A program made the translations under genes and the position numbers. A stretch of 10,115 nucleotides of DNA. It comes from a virus (Duplodnaviria > Heunggongvirae > Uroviricota > Caudoviricetes). Under the pieces are notes generated by a model. The model was not told the origin of the DNA and made no database searches. It saw nothing but the letters and a program-made list of their open reading frames with translations. Of the stretch, positions 1,823 to 10,115 are shown in pieces (positions within the stretch are counted from its first letter, which is position 1; every line of letters begins with the position of its first letter). The stretch lies in the IMG/VR virus record IMGVR_UViG_3300046779_001955, positions 1 to 10,115 of that record. The stretch is one strand, 5' to 3'.

Positions 1823-1944
1823 ACAAAAATTTTATAAAGAAAACTACCAATCAGACACCCCAGCAAACCCGGGAATCCCCAGATCCGCCAGAGTATCAAG
1901 GACATGATAGCTTGAAATAATAACCAAGTTTCAGTTACTATCAT
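1819..1944 (-). CDS. Small hydrophobic membrane protein, 41 aa (MIVTETWLLFQAIMSLILWRIWGFPGLLGCLIGSFLYKIFV)
   Basis: Fills the apparent gap exactly: TAATG overlap with the upstream stop (1944-1946) and ATGA overlap with the downstream start (1822). Below the ORF-track length cut-off. Confidence 0.7.
   Translation of the reverse strand: MIVTETWLLFQAIMSLILWRIWGFPGLLGCLIGSFLYKIFV
1841..1913 (-). other. Long RNA stem-loop (20-bp upper helix 1854-1897, GAUU loop, internal loop, 9-bp lower helix)
   Basis: GAUACUCUGGCGGAUCUGGG-GAUU-CCCGGGUUUGCUGGGGUGUC pairs at all 20 positions (12 Watson-Crick, 8 G-U); AAGCUAUCA (1913-1905) pairs with UGGUAGUUU (1849-1841). Confidence 0.65.
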
Positions 1945-2342
1945 TATGCTGCTTTTTTGGGATAAAAGCGATCACCGACCTTGGCTTCTTTTTGTGCAAA
2001 CCACAAACGCACAAACTCCTCAGGATCTTGTCCTTTGCGTGGTGCGTCACCAACACGACGAGTCTTGGCCACCGGGGTAGCAATTTTTGCAGTCTTTGCA
2101 ACCTTTGTGGATTTGGCAGGTTTAGCAAGTGCCGCAGCACGACGCCAACTGGCAGTAATGCCTTGAGCAGTAAGATAATCAATAGCAGCTTCTTTACCCA
2201 TTGCCATGGGCAACTCAATCATATTAATGTCTGTTGCGCCAAGTTTGGCAAGCACCGCAGCACGACCTGCGTCATTTGCAAATTTGTAAACAGTTGCACC
2301 ATCAACAACACAGGTACCAGCAAAAGTAAAAGTTTTAGACAT
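1944..2342 (-). CDS. Hypothetical protein with Ala/Lys-rich basic linker (132 aa)
   Basis: Start moved from 2372 to ATG 2342, because 2372 lies at the -10/+1 of P4 whereas AAGGAG sits 6 nt before 2342. Confidence 0.85.
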   Translation of the reverse strand: MSKTFTFAGTCVVDGATVYKFANDAGRAAVLAKLGATDINMIELPMAMGKEAAIDYLTAQGITASWRRAAALAKPAKSTKVAKTAKIATPVAKTRRVGDAPRKGQDPEEFVRLWFAQKEAKVGDRFYPKKAA

Positions 2343-2348
2343 CTTTGA

Positions 2349-2401
2349 CTCCTTGTTAGTTACAATACCCATATTATAGCAAACGGGGTTTTATTGGTCA
2401 A
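2349..2401 (-). repeat. Promoter+RBS cassette repeat copy 4
   Basis: Core 2360-2401 is 39/42 identical to 134-175; the leader/SD part resembles copies 2 and 3. Confidence 0.9.
2373..2401 (-). promoter_or_regulatory. Sigma70-type promoter P4
   Basis: TTGACC-17 nt-TATAAT with extended -10 TGn. Confidence 0.9.
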
Positions 2402-2422: not shown

Positions 2423-2632
2423 TTAAGCAACTTTTCCTTCGTAACGTGCAACTACATACCAGTCTGGTGCAGAAGCCTTGTTGTTATTTTTGTAATTATA
2501 GTCTCGAGCGTACTGTTCAGCTTCGGTTTCATTGTCAAAGTACTTGGTATCAAAATGGCGTTGTCCCCAACCACGCTCGTACTCTGTTAATACAACTTTG
2601 TAAACATTTTGGGTAAATTTAACTTCGGGCAT
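2423..2632 (-). CDS. Hypothetical protein (69 aa, MPEVKFTQNVYKVVLTEYERGWGQR...)
   Basis: ATG 2632 has AAGGAG 6 nt upstream; preferred over the TTG at 2659. Confidence 0.85.
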   Translation of the reverse strand: MPEVKFTQNVYKVVLTEYERGWGQRHFDTKYFDNETEAEQYARDYNYKNNNKASAPDWYVVARYEGKVA

Positions 2633-2633
2633 G

Positions 2634-2699
2634 TTATTCTCCTTTGGGGCGAGAAACAATCCAAATAATAATTGCTAAAACAATAACAAACCAAAACAT
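2634..2699 (-). CDS. Single-pass membrane micropeptide, 21 aa (MFWFVIVLAIIIWIVSRPKGE)
   Basis: Perfect AGGAGG 5 nt before the ATG, first ORF behind P5, stop 1 nt before the next ATG. Confidence 0.75.
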   Translation of the reverse strand: MFWFVIVLAIIIWIVSRPKGE

Positions 2700-2728
2700 T
2701 TCAACCTCCTATCAATCACTACAATTAC

Positions 2729-2757
2729 AGTATAAGCGATTGAGAATAATTGGTCAA
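2729..2757 (-). promoter_or_regulatory. Sigma70-type promoter P5
   Basis: TTGACC-17 nt-TATACT; shares the TTGACCAA start of the cassette but is otherwise diverged. Confidence 0.8.
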
Positions 2758-2770
2758 TGTTGCTTTTTTA

Positions 2771-3100
2771 TTAAGAATAGTCAAATTGCGTAAGATCGTA
2801 ATTTTCCCAACGTTCCCGATCTAGGAGATAGGCAGTTAGTGCAGCATCACGTAGATAAAGATAACAATAATTTTGATCATCAATCCAAAATCCCCAAGGT
2901 GTGGATTCACAGTGTGCATTGATACGGCTAAGTCTTTTGTCAAAACCAGGTCCAAACTTTTCAGTAAAGTATTTGAACATTTCGTAGTATAATCTTTGCT
3001 GAGTGTATGTTGCTGCATACCATGTTTCGATTCGATGACTAAATTCATAGTGCAGTGCATGTTTAGCAGTGAGTTTTACTAGTCTAAGATTGGGTTTCAT
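2771..3100 (-). CDS. Hypothetical protein (109 aa), aromatic-rich
   Basis: ATGA overlap with the 193-aa gene; third gene of the P6 unit. Confidence 0.8.
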   Translation of the reverse strand: MKPNLRLVKLTAKHALHYEFSHRIETWYAATYTQQRLYYEMFKYFTEKFGPGFDKRLSRINAHCESTPWGFWIDDQNYCYLYLRDAALTAYLLDRERWENYDLTQFDYS

Positions 3101-3678
3101 ATATTAAAATAATCTAGATGTGTTTGAAAATTCCAGGTAGCAACATCAACTGGATCCTTGCGAAGAGTGATAAAATTAATATGAGACAAGCACTGATATC
3201 TGCGCCAGAACCAGTGAGGATCTGGGGTTGTTGATGTCAACTTGTTTTGATTTAATATTGCGTTATCCTCATTTTTAATTAAGCACATAGGGGCATGCAA
3301 TGCTGCCATGACCGGGATACGCTGTTGTATTACTCCAGCCACTAGGTAACGTACTGGTATCACATGTTCAATGGTAAGTCCGTGTCCGGTCTTTTCAAGC
3401 ACAGTGAACGGAATACTGGCATCACGATAGTGCAGTTGTAGTCTATACTCGTAAGTGTATTCTTGAAACCTGCGTATGGCCTGTTCTATGTCGTCACGTA
3501 TGAGTCTAGCGGACTGATCTAGAATTTCAATTTTATCGTAGTCATCAAGGCAGCGTTGTATTTTGTTCAAGGCCCAATTTTCTGTTGCCTTATAGGCCGC
3601 GCCATCTCTTCCCACTCTGCCATAGTGGGGGGCCACTAGCCCCCCAACTAGATCTTCATTTAGTTGAATTGTTGACAT
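3097..3678 (-). CDS. Putative HNH/His-Me finger-like nuclease (193 aa; DUF1524/GmrD-like motif pattern)
   Basis: LTIEHVIP (E104-H105) followed by MCLIKNEDNAILN and a PxxxWxxRY-like tail; TAATG coupling to the upstream gene. CDS is secure; function is motif-based. Confidence 0.55.
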   Translation of the reverse strand: MSTIQLNEDLVGGLVAPHYGRVGRDGAAYKATENWALNKIQRCLDDYDKIEILDQSARLIRDDIEQAIRRFQEYTYEYRLQLHYRDASIPFTVLEKTGHGLTIEHVIPVRYLVAGVIQQRIPVMAALHAPMCLIKNEDNAILNQNKLTSTTPDPHWFWRRYQCLSHINFITLRKDPVDVATWNFQTHLDYFNI

Positions 3679-4892
3679 TAGAACAAGTCCTCAACAGCAG
3701 GTCTGAAACGAGTGTCAATGCTCAATCGCGGCATACGCATAGGTTTGCCTGATGCGTCTTGCCAACGATATTTGAGTTGGAACCAGAAAAATGTAGCGCC
3801 TTGTGGAACATCTTTGTTGAGACGAATATTTGGTTTCTCGTTTTCGTCCCAGTTGGCATGATAATCGTTGTGCCAGTTTGTGTAAGCTACACCAACCTGT
3901 GACCAAAATGCGCCGCTTTCATCAAAGTCGCCGCGAAATAGTTGCCAGTTTAGATCTGCAAGGCTCCTTATTTCCTCTTCGGTATATTCTATGCCACTGG
4001 AACGTGCCATAGTAAAGAACTTTTGCAGTATGGGAAATTCCTTGGTGTTGACTGCTCGCGGTTGATACGTAAGAATCTGATCTACGTAGATACAGATATC
4101 TTTGAGTACGTCTTTGGGTGTTTTAAACACATCCTTGACACGAGTAAAAGCACCAGGTTGTGTATGATCACCAAACTTACTGTCGGTAAAAAACAGTTGA
4201 TATTCATCAAACAGATCTTGTTTTTCAGCAACATCTTTCCACTCTTGCAGTTCCACACCGTCAAGTTTTACGGCATAAACCATTTGTGAAGTCAAATCGT
4301 AACCATCCATTCCCAGTTTGTTTAAAGGACCGTTGTTAGCAATGAATGTCATGCGCCCATCGCTTCGATTGGGCATGTTATAACGCACTGTGGGAAACTT
4401 TACCTTGTCCATATCTTCTTTGAAGATCATGTGAGTAATAATCCACAATGCTATAGCAGTGTGTTGACCATCCCAACTAGCATAATAGGTATGGCTTTGA
4501 TCCCAATGCTCAGGCACATCAACAGGATTCAACGGATATACCTGAATTGGCATCACCTGATAGATCAGAAAATTTTCAATGATGTTTAGTACGTGGTCTA
4601 TATTCAACACTCGTTGAATGGTGGTATCCAAGCACAACCAGGAACCAGGCAAGGGCACTGCCTCGCAAATGGTCCAGTTTGGCGAGAACCAGCTGGTATA
4701 TTCCGGATGAAGTTTTTGGAATCGACTGATGACATAATTCAGTCGAGAATTAACGCTGTTTCTTACATCAATGGGCAAACTTGCCAAGGATTGATTCCAA
4801 CGGTCTTTGAGAGTGACCATGTTGGACTTGTTGACTTTGTAACGCTGATTTACTGCGTCGGCGTAGATACGAGGTGTGGTTGCTTTTGTCAT
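3678..4892 (-). CDS. ParB/Srx-superfamily DGQHR-like domain protein (404 aa; DndB/DUF262-type motifs)
   Basis: IQR (Q93-R94), WDGQHT (D141-T145) and FIANN (F183-N187) in the canonical order. Start at ATG 4892 with GGAG 6 nt upstream; the 4967 start lies at the predicted +1. Confidence 0.7.
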   Translation of the reverse strand: MTKATTPRIYADAVNQRYKVNKSNMVTLKDRWNQSLASLPIDVRNSVNSRLNYVISRFQKLHPEYTSWFSPNWTICEAVPLPGSWLCLDTTIQRVLNIDHVLNIIENFLIYQVMPIQVYPLNPVDVPEHWDQSHTYYASWDGQHTAIALWIITHMIFKEDMDKVKFPTVRYNMPNRSDGRMTFIANNGPLNKLGMDGYDLTSQMVYAVKLDGVELQEWKDVAEKQDLFDEYQLFFTDSKFGDHTQPGAFTRVKDVFKTPKDVLKDICIYVDQILTYQPRAVNTKEFPILQKFFTMARSSGIEYTEEEIRSLADLNWQLFRGDFDESGAFWSQVGVAYTNWHNDYHANWDENEKPNIRLNKDVPQGATFFWFQLKYRWQDASGKPMRMPRLSIDTRFRPAVEDLF

Positions 4893-4949
4893 ACTAATCT
4901 CCAAATTGTACGTGGTAGCGTTTAAAATACGGTACCGCCGGGTTAAAAT

Positions 4950-4968
4950 AGTGACTCCCATAGTCACT
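4950..4968. promoter_or_regulatory. Inverted repeat AGTGACT-N5-AGTCACT at the predicted transcription start of P6 (operator or 5' stabilising hairpin)
   Basis: Perfect 7-bp arms (4950-4956 / 4962-4968), starting 7 nt downstream of the -10 hexamer. Confidence 0.5.
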
Positions 4969-4974
4969 GGTGCT

Positions 4975-5003
4975 ACTATAAATTAATGTTTTGATTTTGT
5001 CAA
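4975..5003 (-). promoter_or_regulatory. Sigma70-type promoter P6
   Basis: TTGACA-17 nt-TATAGT, embedded in the 3' end of 4983-5249. Confidence 0.8.
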
Positions 5004-5249
5004 CTGGTAATTTTTCCATTTCTGTTGCTGGATCAACAACATTTGTTGATGCTGCGCTGGATGTGTCCGCCAGTACAAACGGTATAACCGACTGGATCCA
5101 CCACGACGCCAGGAAATTTTATGTCCAAGATTGCACCAGCGTCGAAATCTAAAACGCCGCTGATCTGGATCATCGCAAAAGCCCGGGCATGGCGAGTAAT
5201 CTTGCTTTTTATCTCGCCACTGTCGCCAGAAAAACTTTTTAGCCCACAT
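4983..5249 (-). CDS. Hypothetical protein (88 aa, Trp/Arg-rich)
   Basis: Fills the gap on the coding strand and overlaps the methyltransferase stop by 11 nt; no strong SD. Confidence 0.6.
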   Translation of the reverse strand: MWAKKFFWRQWRDKKQDYSPCPGFCDDPDQRRFRFRRWCNLGHKISWRRGGSSRLYRLYWRTHPAQHQQMLLIQQQKWKNYQLTKSKH

Positions 5250-5982
5250 AGGTTACTCTCACTGCTACCTGTTGGTGTCTACTTACACGACCAATATATT
5301 CATATTGTACATTGTAGTTTTTGGTAAAATCATGCCATGCTGCAAATTCATCTTGCTGCCAACCTGGATAGTTCATGTATTCATCAAATATAATTACAGT
5401 GCCTGGTACAATGTTTTTGTGTAATTCTCTCAATACTGTGTCAGTGCTAGAGTATAAGTCGCAGTCAATGTGCAACAACATGATTGGTGCATCAGCATAT
5501 CTAAGTTTCCAATTTTTAACAGTTTCGTCAAACCAACCAACATAGAGTAGACAATTATCTGCTACTTTAGGCAAGCTCTGACGTTTAAAAAACCCTTTGG
5601 GCATACGGCTTGTCCAATCTTCTGGTAAGCCATTAAAACTATCAAAACCATGTATAGGCTTAGTTGGCAATAATCGTGCAAAATGATTTAGTGTGCGGCC
5701 TGTAGCAACACCGAACTCCATGACCACTGCATGATGCGCCATTTCACGTGCAAGTTGAGTATTGACTACCCACTCATGCAAATCATAGTCGCATGCAAAG
5801 TTTGGTACAGTACGCATATGTTGGTCAACATACCTAGCTGACTCTTCGGACGCTAGACGTATAGCAGTGAAGTCGGTGTCAATGACATCTGTGTATTGTC
5901 CGACAAGATGTCGTTGTAGCCATGAAGGCTGCGGATACCGCCACCATTGTCGGATGCGGTCAAGTGTTCGATGTAGATTCAT
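5239..5982 (-). CDS. Class I SAM-dependent methyltransferase, TylF/MycF/NovP-like (247 aa)
   Basis: MEFGVATGRT, GFDSFNGLPEDW, VGWFDET, LHIDCDLYSST and IIFDEY motifs typical of TylF-type O-methyltransferases. Confidence 0.85.
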   Translation of the reverse strand: MNLHRTLDRIRQWWRYPQPSWLQRHLVGQYTDVIDTDFTAIRLASEESARYVDQHMRTVPNFACDYDLHEWVVNTQLAREMAHHAVVMEFGVATGRTLNHFARLLPTKPIHGFDSFNGLPEDWTSRMPKGFFKRQSLPKVADNCLLYVGWFDETVKNWKLRYADAPIMLLHIDCDLYSSTDTVLRELHKNIVPGTVIIFDEYMNYPGWQQDEFAAWHDFTKNYNVQYEYIGRVSRHQQVAVRVTYVG

Positions 5983-8112: not shown

Positions 8113-8331
8113 TTAACCCTCTATGTGTGCAACAATGGTTGCTTTGGTAATTACGATACCGTCTTTATACATAATTTGATTTTTGAATTCAGACAAAGCA
8201 CTTTCTTTGTCGTAACTCCCAACATAAGGCATCTTGGCATCGCCGGTAACTACTTTACCGTTGCGGTCAACTCCTTCGAATTCAATGCGAATTCGTCCTC
8301 GACCAAACAGTCCTTTAATCCAATCAATCAT
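8113..8331 (-). CDS. Hypothetical protein (72 aa, MIDWIKGLFGRGRIRIEF...)
   Basis: ATG 8331 overlaps the YccA stop (ATGATTGA); preferred over 8364. Confidence 0.75.
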   Translation of the reverse strand: MIDWIKGLFGRGRIRIEFEGVDRNGKVVTGDAKMPYVGSYDKESALSEFKNQIMYKDGIVITKATIVAHIEG

Positions 8332-8995
8332 TTTTGTCGCCAAACAGTTGAAGTAAATTAACAAATATATTAATAAAATCTAAATATAAGGTCAATGCCC
8401 CAACGATTTCGGCACGTCCGGTTTCATCGTAAACAATTTCTTCTCGAATCTGTTGTGTGTCGTATGCTGTCAATGCCAGGAAGATTAAGATAGCCACGGC
8501 ACTGATAATCATCTGCATCACAGATGAGCCAATGAAAATGTTAATGATGCTGACAATGATTATAGCGATTAGCGCAACCATACACCACTTGCCAATGGAG
8601 TCCAAACTACGCTTGGTAAAGTATCCATAAAAACTCATGGTACCAAACAACACTGCTGCACCACCAAATGCCGACGCAATTGATCCCATCTTGTACACTA
8701 CAAAGATCGAAGCCAGACTTAGGCCAATTACAGCAGCAAAGGCATGTAGAAATATCTGTGCCATGGGTCTGGATATTGATTCAATTATCGCACCAAGTCC
8801 CAGAGCCATGATAATTGGAGCAAACAATATGATCCACTTTAACGGAGTGGCAAAGAACAAATGCATCAAGGCCGGACTTTGGCTTACTAAAAAACTTATC
8901 ACCATGCTGTTGACAACAGCCAGAGCCATGTTTAGATAAACTCTGGCCATAGATTCATTGACTTCGGCTGCGGACTTTACTGTCGCTGCAAACAT
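8324..8995 (-). CDS. yccA: Bax inhibitor-1/YccA (TMBIM) family membrane protein (223 aa)
   Basis: Seven hydrophobic segments, YGYFTKRSL, LTAYDTQQI and GALTLYLDFINIFVNLL motifs; AGGAGG SD. Confidence 0.92.
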   Translation of the reverse strand: MFAATVKSAAEVNESMARVYLNMALAVVNSMVISFLVSQSPALMHLFFATPLKWIILFAPIIMALGLGAIIESISRPMAQIFLHAFAAVIGLSLASIFVVYKMGSIASAFGGAAVLFGTMSFYGYFTKRSLDSIGKWCMVALIAIIIVSIINIFIGSSVMQMIISAVAILIFLALTAYDTQQIREEIVYDETGRAEIVGALTLYLDFINIFVNLLQLFGDKND

Positions 8996-9016: not shown

Positions 9017-9268
9017 TTACTGTTTTGAATCGATGCAATACCCACCTTTGAACTTATAAACTCCACTGTCAAAGCTCATACGCTCGTAGATTTCGTTGTT
9101 AAAACACTTAAAGGGATCTTTGTAGTTAGAGAAATAACTATAACCCGCATAACCGATACTGCCAAATACTGCGACCAAGATGACGAGAATAATAACACCC
9201 TTGAGATTGGACATTACATTCGGAAGCACCCCTAGAATTTGGGGCAACATTTTGAGGAAGTCTTTCAT
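9017..9268 (-). CDS. Single-pass membrane protein (83 aa) with C-terminal Cys pair
   Basis: GVIILVILVAVFGSIGYAGYSYF TM segment; 4-nt overlap with the upstream stop. Confidence 0.75.
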   Translation of the reverse strand: MKDFLKMLPQILGVLPNVMSNLKGVIILVILVAVFGSIGYAGYSYFSNYKDPFKCFNNEIYERMSFDSGVYKFKGGYCIDSKQ

Positions 9269-10115
9269 ATGTCAACATATTTAACCTCAAAATTGTCAGC
9301 TCGGTCTTCGTACCCATCGTAACCACGAGGATTGCAAATAACTCGAGTGGTACCAATCATGTAGTCAAAATCCTCGTGTGTATGTCCATGTGTCCACAGC
9401 TTAATTTCTCTCCGATCCAAAATAAAATCATCTAGGTTGGTGCTGTATGCACCATTCATAACAACTTCATTTTTATAACGTGGATGAGTTGATGCCTTGC
9501 TGGGAGCATGATGTCCCACCACAACTACTGGAACATCAGGACGCAGAGCCAATGCCGCATCTAAATTACGGCGAAACTTATAGTGTTCTTCAACAGCATC
9601 AGCGGGTATAAAGTTGCTGGGACGTTGTATCATCTTGTGAATGGTTTTGCCAGGATTTTCTGGATCTGGCAAGCTGGTCTGATATTCCAACATGTTGTTG
9701 GAATTTTTCACGCAATTAAAATCATTCATCATGGTACGAATCATGGCCATTGTAGCACGATCCTCGCCATTCATGTCTGTCCACAATGTGCCGCCAAAGA
9801 ACATGACATCGTTGATGATAACCCACTCGTTGTCAAGGAAGTGGAAGTTATTAAACGCACCAAACGTGCCGCGAATAATGTTGGCAGTTTCAGCAAAGTC
9901 ACCGTGATAGTGTTCATGATTGCCCATGATAAACACCACATGCGGAAATTCTTCAATACAGCCGCGGATGAAATTAAAAATTCTATCGGCACGAGCTTTT
10001 TGGCCGCTGGTAGCAGCAACCAACTGCGCACTTTCATCGTAGAGCCAAGATTTCAAATCCGAAGCCACAAAGATATCACCGCCAAGTATTAAAACATCGG
10101 CGTTGTTGGTATTTG
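9265..10115 (-). CDS. Calcineurin-like metallophosphoesterase, N-terminus beyond the window
   Basis: Frame is open to the right edge (NTNNADVLILGGDIFVASDL...); motifs GD, GNHEHY, GGTLWTD, GHHAP and HGHTH. Confidence 0.9.
   Translation of the reverse strand, partial: NTNNADVLILGGDIFVASDLKSWLYDESAQLVAATSGQKARADRIFNFIRGCIEEFPHVVFIMGNHEHYHGDFAETANIIRGTFGAFNNFHFLDNEWVIINDVMFFGGTLWTDMNGEDRATMAMIRTMMNDFNCVKNSNNMLEYQTSLPDPENPGKTIHKMIQRPSNFIPADAVEEHYKFRRNLDAALALRPDVPVVVVGHHAPSKASTHPRYKNEVVMNGAYSTNLDDFILDRREIKLWTHGHTHEDFDYMIGTTRVICNPRGYDGYEDRADNFEVKYVDI

What the first reader, a model, noticed from the sequence alone, without database searches (positions are those of the whole stretch)
3097..4892. Coupled DGQH(T) ParB/Srx-fold protein + EHxxP HNH-like nuclease: candidate split GmrSD/SspE/Dnd-like system in a phage-like genome
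Seen: two genes joined by TAATG, behind their own promoter P6 and followed by a coupled 109-aa gene. The first has the QR / DGQHx / FxxxN triad; the second has EHVIP...CLIxxxDNxxLN. Known: the triad defines DndB/DGQHR and DUF262 domains, and DUF262 plus an HNH (DUF1524) domain is the architecture of modification-dependent GmrSD and phosphorothioate-linked SspE nucleases. Inference: a two-component nucleotide- or modification-sensing nuclease used for host DNA degradation or exclusion of competing phages. The ~215-aa C-terminal half of the large protein matches nothing I recognise and could be a novel specificity domain.
Basis: partly seen in the sequence, partly recalled or inferred. Interest (0 to 1): 0.8.

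Follow-up and report, generated by a model that had tools for sequence, protein, structure and literature searches.

The report
Phage ParB-fold plus nuclease gene pair
An uncultured freshwater jumbo phage carries a small early-expressed cassette, a nucleotide-binding ParB-fold protein coupled to a likely DNA-cutting partner, that recurs in well over a hundred viral contigs but in no cultured phage or curated family, and probably acts as a two-part nuclease in conflicts with the host or rival phages.

Summary
On the minus strand a 404-aa gene (3678-4892) overlaps a 193-aa gene (3097-3678) by TAATG, behind a near-consensus sigma70-type promoter.

- **Large protein:** a confident ParB/Srx-fold model with invariant QR, WDGQHT and RxxFxxxN motifs. 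Its whole length is closest in shape to viral DUF6551 proteins.
- **Small protein:** invariant E-H-V-I-P and a D/H/N position on a predicted beta-beta-alpha unit. Its nuclease identity is probable but not proven.
- **Pairing:** neither protein matches Pfam, PHROGs, PADLOC or NCBIfam. The pair is nearly obligate in about 85 viral loci. One clade of the large protein carries the EHVIP partner and the sister clade carries a canonical zinc HNH at the same coupled position.
- **Cassette behaviour:** promoter plus both genes is a clean 1.87-kb indel between two related contigs. Natural variants are almost all synonymous.

Not supported:
- membership of GmrSD or DndB;
- modification sensing;
- a role for the 109-aa gene or the neighbouring methyltransferase;
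- a novel C-terminal half.

Best reading is a GmrS/GmrD-like, NTP-gated two-subunit nuclease used early in infection. This scan already reported the HNH-type pair on other DNA (e1-1852595).

The parts
4975..5003 (-). Sigma70-type (early-type) promoter of the cassette: TTGACA-17 nt-TATAGT
   Evidence: Best consensus match in 2600-5400, 11 of 12. A TTGACx-N16-18-TAnnnT site lies within about 125 nt upstream of the ParB-like gene in 71 of 85 related loci.
4893..4974 (-). 5' leader with GGAG ribosome-binding site
   Evidence: Sequence read directly. The fold is not better than shuffles, z = -0.56. Three independent runs carry a 1-nt insertion at 4944, so the region is non-coding.
3678..4892 (-). 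404-aa ParB/Srx-fold protein (P0001), DUF6551-like, invariant QR / WDGQHT / RxxFxxxN
   Evidence: Translation. 44 homologues in metagenomes. Invariant motifs. AF2 model pLDDT 90.6. Variants mostly synonymous.
4308..4664 (-). ParB/Srx core domain (residues 77-195) with the predicted NTP pocket
3681..4307 (-). C-terminal helical half (residues 196-404), shared with viral DUF6551-type proteins
3097..3678 (-). 193-aa EHVIP protein (P0002), probable His-Me-finger nuclease subunit, translationally coupled (TAATG)
   Evidence: Translation. 67 representative homologues. AF2 pLDDT 94.4. All 13 listed natural variants are synonymous. It lies immediately downstream of the ParB-like gene in the EHVIP clade.
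3196..3432 (-). Predicted catalytic core of P0002 (residues 83-161): H83-Y84, beta strand ending E104-H105, P108, N/H128, P130, beta 131-135, helix with D/H/N139, R160-Y161
   Evidence: Column statistics on 43 sequences. DSSP of the model. AFDB cluster named 'HNH endonuclease', E 7e-4. Atlas GmrSD_C clusters, TM 0.37 over residues 60-189.
2771..3100 (-). 109-aa orphan ORF (P0003), ATGA-coupled; probably co-transcribed but not part of the conserved system
   Evidence: No relative in any of about 160 related loci. No family hit. No Atlas neighbour. The next promoter-like site lies downstream of it at 2757-2729.

Best explanation
The cassette is an accessory, early-expressed, two-subunit nuclease of uncultured T4-related jumbo phages. 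The 404-aa subunit is a ParB/Srx-fold nucleotide-binding protein of the DUF6551 type. The proposal is that it binds an NTP and DNA and licenses or targets the 193-aa subunit, a divergent His-Me-finger (HNH-like) endonuclease whose general base would be H105 and whose metal ligand would be position 139.

The pair would work like GmrS/GmrD, the two-gene form of GmrSD, without belonging to that family. It would be used at the onset of infection against non-self DNA, either the host chromosome or co-infecting phages and mobile elements.

Shown here:
- the fold of the large subunit and conservation of its pocket motifs;
- translational coupling and near-obligate pairing;
- replacement of the partner by a canonical HNH in the sister clade;
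- a sigma70-type promoter;
- gain or loss of the cassette as a unit;
- purifying selection on both genes.

Inferred only: nuclease activity, physical complex, NTP gating, and the target.
For: 1. Large subunit. The AF2 model has pLDDT 90.6. The best solved-structure matches are exclusively ParB/Srx proteins over residues 77-195. The full length resembles viral DUF6551/ParB_N clusters. T91, R94, W140-DGQHT-145, R180, F183 and N187 are invariant. DUF6551-type phage proteins and a DndB-like protein bind CTP, ATP or GTP in vitro (PMC12704722).

2. Pairing. In 85 loci the gene immediately downstream is the EHVIP family in 25 and a PF01844 HNH in about 56. The rest are truncated loci or two loci with an insertion. 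A start codon lies within -9 to +10 nt of the upstream stop in 63 of 65 non-redundant loci.

3. Partner swap. The ParB-like tree splits 100/99 into an EHVIP-partner clade and an HNH-partner clade. Flanking genes are otherwise highly variable, with 34 upstream and 32 downstream clusters among 57 HNH-clade loci.

4. Small subunit. E104 is 42/43, H105, P108 and P130 are 43/43, and position 139 is D27/H11/N4/E1. They sit on a predicted strand, strand, helix unit. Supporting hits are an AFDB 'HNH endonuclease' cluster at E 7e-4 and two GmrSD_C clusters in the Atlas shape search. The (I/L/V)(E/D)H(I/L/V)xP motif defined for GmrD is present (PMC4619093).

5. Early promoter in the window and in 71 of 85 loci.

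6. Accessory cassette. L120 and L121 are about 80% identical on both sides. They differ by a 1,873-nt versus 12-nt indel that holds exactly the promoter, the ParB-like gene and the EHVIP gene.

7. Natural variants are synonymous in 20 of 23 listed sites of the two genes, with no indels.
Against: - No curated family, solved structure or profile-profile comparison links the small protein to HNH nucleases at the sequence level. Its structural matches have TM below 0.5.
- The arginine that contacts phosphates in Srx (FGGCHR) and is conserved in DGQHR/DGQQR is an invariant threonine here, so NTP binding or hydrolysis may differ or be lost.
- One contig fragment (L117) has the EHVIP gene, with intact motifs, but no ParB-like gene next to it.
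- No self-protecting DNA modification genes were found in three near-complete relatives. How the phage would spare its own DNA is therefore unexplained.
Confidence: 0.5

Rival explanations
1. A selfish, free-standing two-gene homing endonuclease cassette of T4-like phages. The ParB-fold protein supplies DNA binding and target choice. The small nuclease cuts cassette-less relatives during co-infection and so spreads the cassette (marker exclusion). This overlaps with the best explanation in chemistry and differs in purpose.
For: - There is a clean presence/absence indel of promoter plus both genes between about 80% identical contigs.
- The cassette has its own promoter.
- Flanks are very variable in the HNH clade.
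- Close relatives carrying the same upstream methyltransferase lack the pair (L116, L119, L120).
- The HNH partner is small (about 150 aa) and has no obvious DNA-binding module of its own.
Against: - Known free-standing homing endonucleases are single proteins. A 400-aa partner with invariant nucleotide-pocket residues is not expected.
- The pair shows deep, orderly co-divergence with one partner switch.
- In the EHVIP clade it sits at one fixed site in 17 of 23 loci.
- A sigma70-type early promoter is not typical of T4 homing genes; this last point rests on my own knowledge.
Confidence: 0.2
2. A DNA-modification or regulatory accessory in the manner of DndB or DpdB. The ParB-fold protein would be an NTP-dependent DNA-binding regulator or helper of a modification pathway, perhaps linked to the adjacent TylF-like methyltransferase and the phage's sugar-tailoring genes. 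The small protein would be a non-catalytic or nicking partner.
For: - The DGQH motif and QR/FxxxN triad resemble DGQHR/DndB. Two of 26 members give weak PF14072 hits, E 0.03.
- A TylF/Methyltransf_24 gene lies directly upstream in 21 loci.
- Earlier notes report sugar-tailoring cassettes elsewhere in this genome.
Against: - The methyltransferase association is confined to one clade and it persists without the pair.
- No TGT/DpdA and no Dam, N6/N4 or C5 methyltransferase in three near-complete relatives.
- No dnd or ssp genes are in the window.
- The sister clade's partner is an unambiguous HNH nuclease.
Confidence: 0.1
3. A genome-maintenance device. A ParB-like NTP-dependent DNA clamp with a nuclease would be used for replication, recombination, concatemer processing or packaging of the very large genome.
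For: - The closest solved folds are CTP-dependent clamps (ParB, Noc, KorB).
- The canonical HNH partner's only matches in cultured phages are the terminase-associated HNH genes of mycobacteriophages, over the HNH core only.
Against: - The pair is dispensable. Close relatives lack it.
- It sits among small early accessory genes and is not near structural or packaging genes.
- It has an early-type promoter.
- No ParA or repeat array was seen in the window.
Confidence: 0.1
4. The small protein is not a nuclease. The pair would be a ParB-fold NTP switch with an adaptor or inhibitor, for example an anti-defence or host-takeover factor that binds a host protein or nucleic acid without cutting.
For: - No sequence-level link of the EHVIP family to any nuclease.
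- A large part of the protein is a helical hairpin typical of interaction modules.
Against: - The invariant E-H, N/H and D/H/N pattern sits on a strand-strand-helix unit.
- It is positionally equivalent to a true HNH.
- It has GmrSD_C and HNH structural leads.
Confidence: 0.1

Closest known systems
GmrS/GmrD, the two-gene form of the GmrSD type IV restriction enzyme (DUF262 PF03235 + DUF1524 PF07510; E. coli CT596; PMC4619093)
   Same: - A ParB/Srx-fold protein with QR, DGQ-x-x and FxxxN motifs is encoded next to a small nuclease.
- That nuclease carries an (I/L/V)(E/D)H(I/L/V)xP motif.
- The two parts co-evolve.
- The genes are an accessory, mobile-looking conflict module.
   Different: - Neither protein reaches any Pfam, NCBIfam or PADLOC model of the family.
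- The motif is DGQHT, not DGQQR.
- The LGNLxLLxxxN and NxxFxxKK motifs of GmrD are absent.
- It is encoded by lytic-type jumbo phages behind an early promoter, not in bacterial defence islands.
- No evidence of modification dependence.
- No fused form was found, which is weak evidence.
DUF6551 (PF20188) phage ParB-CTPase-fold proteins (survey in PMC12704722)
   Same: - Best whole-length structural likeness: TM 0.73-0.76 by hit over residues 78-393, core and C-terminal helices together.
- They are viral.
- Members bind CTP or ATP in vitro.
   Different: - Sequence match is marginal, E 0.063 in 2 of 26 members.
- The present family is longer at the N-terminus.
- It is defined by obligate coupling to a nuclease gene.
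- DUF6551 has no known function.
DndB / DGQHR-domain proteins (PF14072, TIGR03187) and DpdB
   Same: - ParB/Srx fold.
- QR, DGQH and FxxxN triad.
- NTP-responsive DNA-binding proteins of DNA-modification systems.
   Different: - The terminal arginine is replaced by an invariant threonine.
- HMM hits are below threshold.
- No dnd or dpd partner genes. TGT is absent from relatives.
- The partner is nuclease-like.
ParB-CTPase fold fused to HNH (PF02195 + PF01844) in bacteria, noted in PMC12704722
   Same: It combines a ParB-fold nucleotide-binding module with an HNH nuclease.
   Different: - Those are single polypeptides with a canonical ParB_N domain, found in bacteria, and are uncharacterised.
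- Here there are two genes.
- The ParB-like domain is not detected by PF02195.
- The family is viral.

Membership tests
ParB/Srx fold superfamily | The characteristic alpha/beta core as seen in ParB, Noc, KorB, sulfiredoxin, SerK and SbnI | tested here: met
- The Foldseek PDB top 40 are all ParB/Noc/KorB/Srx, best E 0.02.
- AFDB and Atlas hits are ParB/Sulfiredoxin, ParB_N and DUF6551.
ParB/Srx fold superfamily | Phosphate-binding signature at the strand-to-helix junction (GERRxR, FGGCHR, DGQ[QH]R) including the arginine | tested here: inconclusive
   WDGQHT is invariant and sits at strand 137-141 / helix 143-156. The arginine position is an invariant threonine. Nucleotide binding was not measured.
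DGQHR domain / DndB (PF14072, TIGR03187) | Match to the family model above its threshold | tested here: not met
   There is no Pfam or NCBIfam hit for P0001 at E <= 1. Only 2 of 26 family members hit PF14072, best E 0.03.
DGQHR domain / DndB (PF14072, TIGR03187) | QR pair, nearly invariant DGQHR pentapeptide, FxxxN (as listed in PMC4619093) | tested here: not met
   QR (93-94) and FxxxN (183-187) are present and conserved. The pentapeptide is DGQHT in all 26 sequences.
GmrSD type IV restriction enzyme | N-terminal part matches DUF262 / GmrSD_N (PF03235) with (I/V)(I/V)DGQQRLTT | tested here: not met
   There is no PF03235 hit for any of 26 members at E <= 1. The motif is WDGQHTAIA. The only lead is one Atlas look-alike cluster with PF03235 on 51% of members.
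GmrSD type IV restriction enzyme | Nuclease part matches DUF1524 / GmrSD_C (PF07510) | tested here: not met
   There is no PF07510 hit for any of 43 members at E <= 1. The shape search gives two GmrSD_C clusters at TM 0.37 only.
GmrSD type IV restriction enzyme | GmrD motifs (I/L/V)(E/D)H(I/L/V)xPQ, L(G/A)NLxLLxxxN, NxxFxxKK | tested here: inconclusive
   - The first motif is met without the Q: [FIV]-E-H-[VLM]-[ILV]-P, essentially invariant.
- The second is only loosely paralleled by A-L-N-x-P-T-C-x-L-S-K-x-x-[DHN].
- The third is absent.
GmrSD type IV restriction enzyme | Cleavage that depends on modified (glucosyl-hmC or similar) DNA and NTP hydrolysis | not testable with these tools
   This needs biochemistry. 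Relatives lack recognisable DNA-modification genes, which bears only on self-protection.
DUF6551 (PF20188) | Match to the family model above its threshold | tested here: not met
   There is no hit for P0001. Two of 26 members hit at best E 0.063.
DUF6551 (PF20188) | Same overall architecture (ParB-like core plus C-terminal helical domain) | tested here: met
   The Atlas shape search finds viral clusters carrying PF20188 with TM 0.51-0.57 by query and 0.73-0.76 by hit. They have 243-262 aligned residues at rmsd 3.0-3.8.
HNH / His-Me finger nucleases (for the 193-aa protein) | Match to an HNH-clan model or to a solved His-Me finger structure | tested here: inconclusive
   - No Pfam hit. One of 43 members hits HNH_4 at E 0.11.
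- PDB searches are swamped by the helical hairpin.
- An AFDB cluster named 'HNH endonuclease' scores E 7e-4, TM 0.42/0.45.
- hhalign against the canonical HNH partner family finds nothing.
HNH / His-Me finger nucleases (for the 193-aa protein) | Beta-beta-alpha unit with an invariant His at the end of strand 1, a structural Asn, and a His/Asn/Asp metal ligand on the helix | tested here: met
   - Predicted strand 101-105 ends in E104-H105 (43/43).
- Position 128 is N in 29 and H in 6 of 43.
- Strand 131-135 is followed by helix 136-144 with position 139 as D27/H11/N4/E1.
- This rests on a predicted model, not a solved one.

The most novel reading that the evidence does not exclude
A phage-only class of NTP-gated two-subunit nucleases, in which a ParB-type nucleotide switch of the DUF6551 kind loads on DNA and arms an exchangeable His-Me nuclease. 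Jumbo phages would carry it as a portable early-gene cassette, as an offensive weapon against host or rival-phage DNA or as a new kind of two-protein homing element. It would give the first function to the DUF6551-type phage ParB-fold proteins.
Probability: 0.3. Interest if true: 0.75.

Novelty: new variant of a known kind. Interest (0 to 1): 0.6.

Why it matters
ParB-fold nucleotide switches are now known to reach far beyond chromosome segregation. The phage branches such as DUF6551 still have no assigned function.

This family gives a concrete, testable hypothesis: an NTP-binding ParB-fold subunit controlling a nuclease.

- It is abundant in uncultured large phages. At least 200 of 233 candidate stretches in IMG/VR encode a relative, and Atlas clusters of the partner reach 1,371 members.
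- It is absent from 50,697 deposited phage genomes and from Pfam, PHROGs, PADLOC and NCBIfam.
- The natural swap between two unrelated-looking nuclease partners is a ready-made experiment on how the switch couples to its effector.
- If the enzyme is specific for certain DNA states, it could explain host takeover or inter-phage exclusion in jumbo phages and might become a tool enzyme.

Tried and rejected
- **Family libraries.** Pfam, PHROGs, PADLOC and NCBIfam scans of the three proteins gave nothing meaningful.
- **PDB by sequence.** Profile searches against PDB sequences gave only spurious helical or RegB hits.
- **Cultured phages.** Megablast of the window and tblastn of P0001, P0032, P0047 and P0111 found no match. 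A control with the canonical HNH worked.
- **Fused forms.** A search for longer forms found none, which is weak evidence.
- **Complex prediction.** Complex prediction on the two alignments gave no verdict, score 0.20 under the 0.32 mark. This is evidence neither way.
- **Small protein, solved structures.** PDB and BFVD Foldseek and both VIA runs were dominated by the 26-79 helical hairpin and gave no informative solved match.
- **Small protein versus HNH.** hhalign of the EHVIP family against the HNH partner family, whole or cores only, showed no similarity.
- **Expression.** No RNA holder is listed among sequencing runs.
- **RNA elements.** Rfam found nothing in the window. The 5' leader fold is no better than shuffles.
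- **Rejected as parts of the system.** The 109-aa gene, the TylF-like methyltransferase and the 88-aa ORF 4983-5249 do not belong to it.
Full report
**What is there**

The window is the first 10 kb of an 86-kb IMG/VR viral contig that CheckV rates 25% complete. Earlier notes of this scan describe the genome as an uncultured T4-related jumbo phage. All real genes run on the minus strand.

- a 404-aa ORF from ATG 4892, with GGAG upstream, to TAA 3678;
- a 193-aa ORF (3097-3678) whose ATG overlaps that stop as TAATG;
- a 109-aa ORF (2771-3100) overlapping as ATGA.

The best sigma70-like site in the region, TTGACA-17-TATAGT, lies at 5003-4975. A second site at 2757-2729 follows the 109-aa ORF. The three ORFs therefore look like one transcription unit.

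**Are the genes real?**

Near-identical DNA occurs in metagenomes of at least ten further studies from freshwater, soil, groundwater and estuary. Contigs from four of these runs were laid on the region. They show substitutions but no indels inside the two ORFs. All 13 listed variants in the 193-aa gene are synonymous, and 7 of 10 in the 404-aa gene are.

A 1-nt insertion at 4944 in three runs rules out the longer GTG-4967 start. The region 5004-5238, including an 88-aa ORF, carries dense substitutions and small indels and has no homologue. It is probably non-coding.

**The large protein**

No curated library recognises it. It has 44 metagenomic homologues down to 25% identity. T91, R94, W140-D-G-Q-H-T145, R180, F183 and N187 are invariant.

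The AlphaFold model built on that alignment is confident, pLDDT 90.6.
- **ESM Atlas by shape.** The nearest named clusters are viral DUF6551/ParB_N proteins. They align over nearly the whole length, TM 0.73-0.76 by hit. The C-terminal helical half is therefore shared with that family and is not new.
- **Motif placement.** The DGQHT motif sits where Srx has FGGCHR and GmrS has DGQQR (PMC4619093). The arginine is an invariant threonine.
- **Published biochemistry.** Phage DUF6551-type proteins and a DndB-like protein bind CTP, ATP or GTP (PMC12704722).

**The small protein**

Word-based search found two relatives. An exhaustive HMMER search found 67 representatives. The model is confident, pLDDT 94.4. 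It has a long helical hairpin (26-79) and then strand 101-105, two short helices, strand 131-135 and helix 136-144.

Conservation fits a His-Me finger:
- E104 is 42/43 and H105 is 43/43, at the end of the first strand;
- P108 and P130 are 43/43;
- position 128 is N in 29 and H in 6;
- position 139 on the helix is D27/H11/N4/E1.

Direct support is weak. It consists of an AFDB cluster named HNH endonuclease at E 7e-4 and two GmrSD_C clusters at TM 0.37.

PDB searches were swamped by the hairpin. No sequence or profile method links the family to HNH. I rate the nuclease identity at about 70%.

**Comparative genomics, the strongest evidence**

A scan of IMG/VR gave 200 confirmed relatives of the large protein, of which 80 loci were kept.

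- **Pairing.** In these loci plus four assembly loci, the gene immediately downstream on the same strand is the EHVIP family in 25 and a canonical zinc HNH (PF01844, E 3.5e-9) in about 56. The exceptions are truncated loci and two loci with an insertion.
- **Coupling.** A start codon lies within -9 to +10 nt of the upstream stop in 63 of 65 non-redundant loci.
- **Partner swap.** A maximum-likelihood tree of the large protein splits 100/99 into an EHVIP-partner clade and an HNH-partner clade. That is one ancient partner displacement.
- **Flanks.** Flanking genes are otherwise highly variable.
- **Promoter.** A sigma70-type promoter precedes the pair in 71 of 85 loci.

**What does not belong**

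The TylF-like methyltransferase upstream (5239-5982) accompanies only the EHVIP clade. In a second scan seeded on it, several relatives keep it without the pair.

The clearest case is L120 against L121. They are about 80% identical on both sides. They differ by 12 nt versus 1,873 nt, holding exactly the promoter, the ParB-like gene and the EHVIP gene. The cassette is therefore an accessory unit that is gained or lost whole.

One contig fragment (L117) has an intact EHVIP gene without the large gene beside it. The 109-aa ORF has no relative anywhere.

**Mechanism**

The most economical reading is a two-subunit enzyme. A ParB-fold nucleotide-binding subunit would license or target a small His-Me nuclease, expressed from a host-type early promoter, acting on non-self DNA.

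This works like GmrS/GmrD, but membership of GmrSD, DndB or DUF6551 fails at the model level.

Modification sensing is not supported. Three 97-100% complete relatives lack TGT/DpdA and Dam, N6/N4 and C5 methyltransferases, and only one has a ThyA-type gene. How the phage spares its own DNA remains open.

The main rival is a two-protein homing or exclusion cassette. The indel, the promoter and the variable flanks all fit it. Other rivals are a DndB-like regulatory role, genome maintenance and a non-nuclease partner.

**Novelty**

No paper in the library describes the pair. No deposited phage genome carries it (with a working control).

This scan has met the same family on other DNA. A follow-up, e1-1852595, reached a similar reading for the HNH-type pair. 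Several first-reader notes flag both types.

New here are:
- the clade-wise partner swap;
- the cassette indel;
- the DUF6551 kinship of the whole large protein;
- the promoter tally;
- the population-level evidence of purifying selection.

I class it as a new variant of a known kind, namely a ParB-fold protein plus His-Me nuclease system.

Noticed in passing
window 5239-5982 (-): A 247-aa TylF / Methyltransf_24 class I methyltransferase (PF05711, E 3.9e-10) lies directly upstream. It is conserved at 43-75% identity in many viral contigs. It is a sugar O-methyltransferase-type enzyme of unknown target in a phage that also carries sugar-tailoring cassettes. It persists where the ParB-nuclease cassette is absent.
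   Followed up: partly
window 4983-5249 (-): An 88-aa Arg/Trp-rich ORF lies in the unusually long (346 nt) gap between the methyltransferase and the cassette. It has no homologue in related loci. Independent metagenome strains carry dense substitutions and 1-nt indels here, so it is probably non-coding spacer DNA. Relatives have only about 100 nt at this position.
   Followed up: partly
window 8324-8995 (-): A 223-aa Bax1-I (BI-1/YccA-type) membrane protein, PF01027 E 1.5e-50, is encoded by the phage. One related locus (L019) also has it.
   Followed up: no
window 9265-10113 (-): A calcineurin-like metallophosphoesterase (PF00149) runs off the window end. It is conserved 3.4-5.6 kb upstream of the cassette in eight related loci (seen in 11 in all).
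   Followed up: no
window 1944-2372 (-): A 142-aa protein with a Lys/Ala-rich tail (AKPAKSTKVAKTAKIATPVAKT). Relatives lie within about 0.5-4.7 kb of the cassette in 17 loci of both the EHVIP and HNH clades. It could be a DNA-binding protein, and the link to the cassette is untested.
   Followed up: no
L117:5818-6393: An EHVIP-family gene with all conserved residues sits directly after the methyltransferase with no ParB-like gene. The 42.5-kb contig (12% complete) has no ParB-like gene either. It is the only solo case seen.
   Followed up: partly
L087-L089, L110, L112, L123, L127, L130 (between the two cassette genes); L092, L097, L112, L131 (between methyltransferase and cassette): Insertions of 0.35-1.8 kb split the otherwise overlapping gene pair or separate it from the upstream gene. 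This suggests that the junctions are hot spots for small-gene insertion.
   Followed up: no
window 4948-4968 (-): A perfect 7-bp hairpin (AGUGACU-AUGGG-AGUCACU) lies at the predicted 5' end of the cassette transcript. The leader as a whole folds no better than shuffles (z = -0.56).
   Followed up: partly
L004 (340-kb contig) and L002: Relatives carry unusual auxiliary genes near the cassette. L004 has SufB/D and a SufC-like ABC ATPase, Hsp20, ClpS and sugar C-methyltransferase/epimerase genes. L002 has rubrerythrin, DUF3501 and a c-type cytochrome.
   Followed up: no
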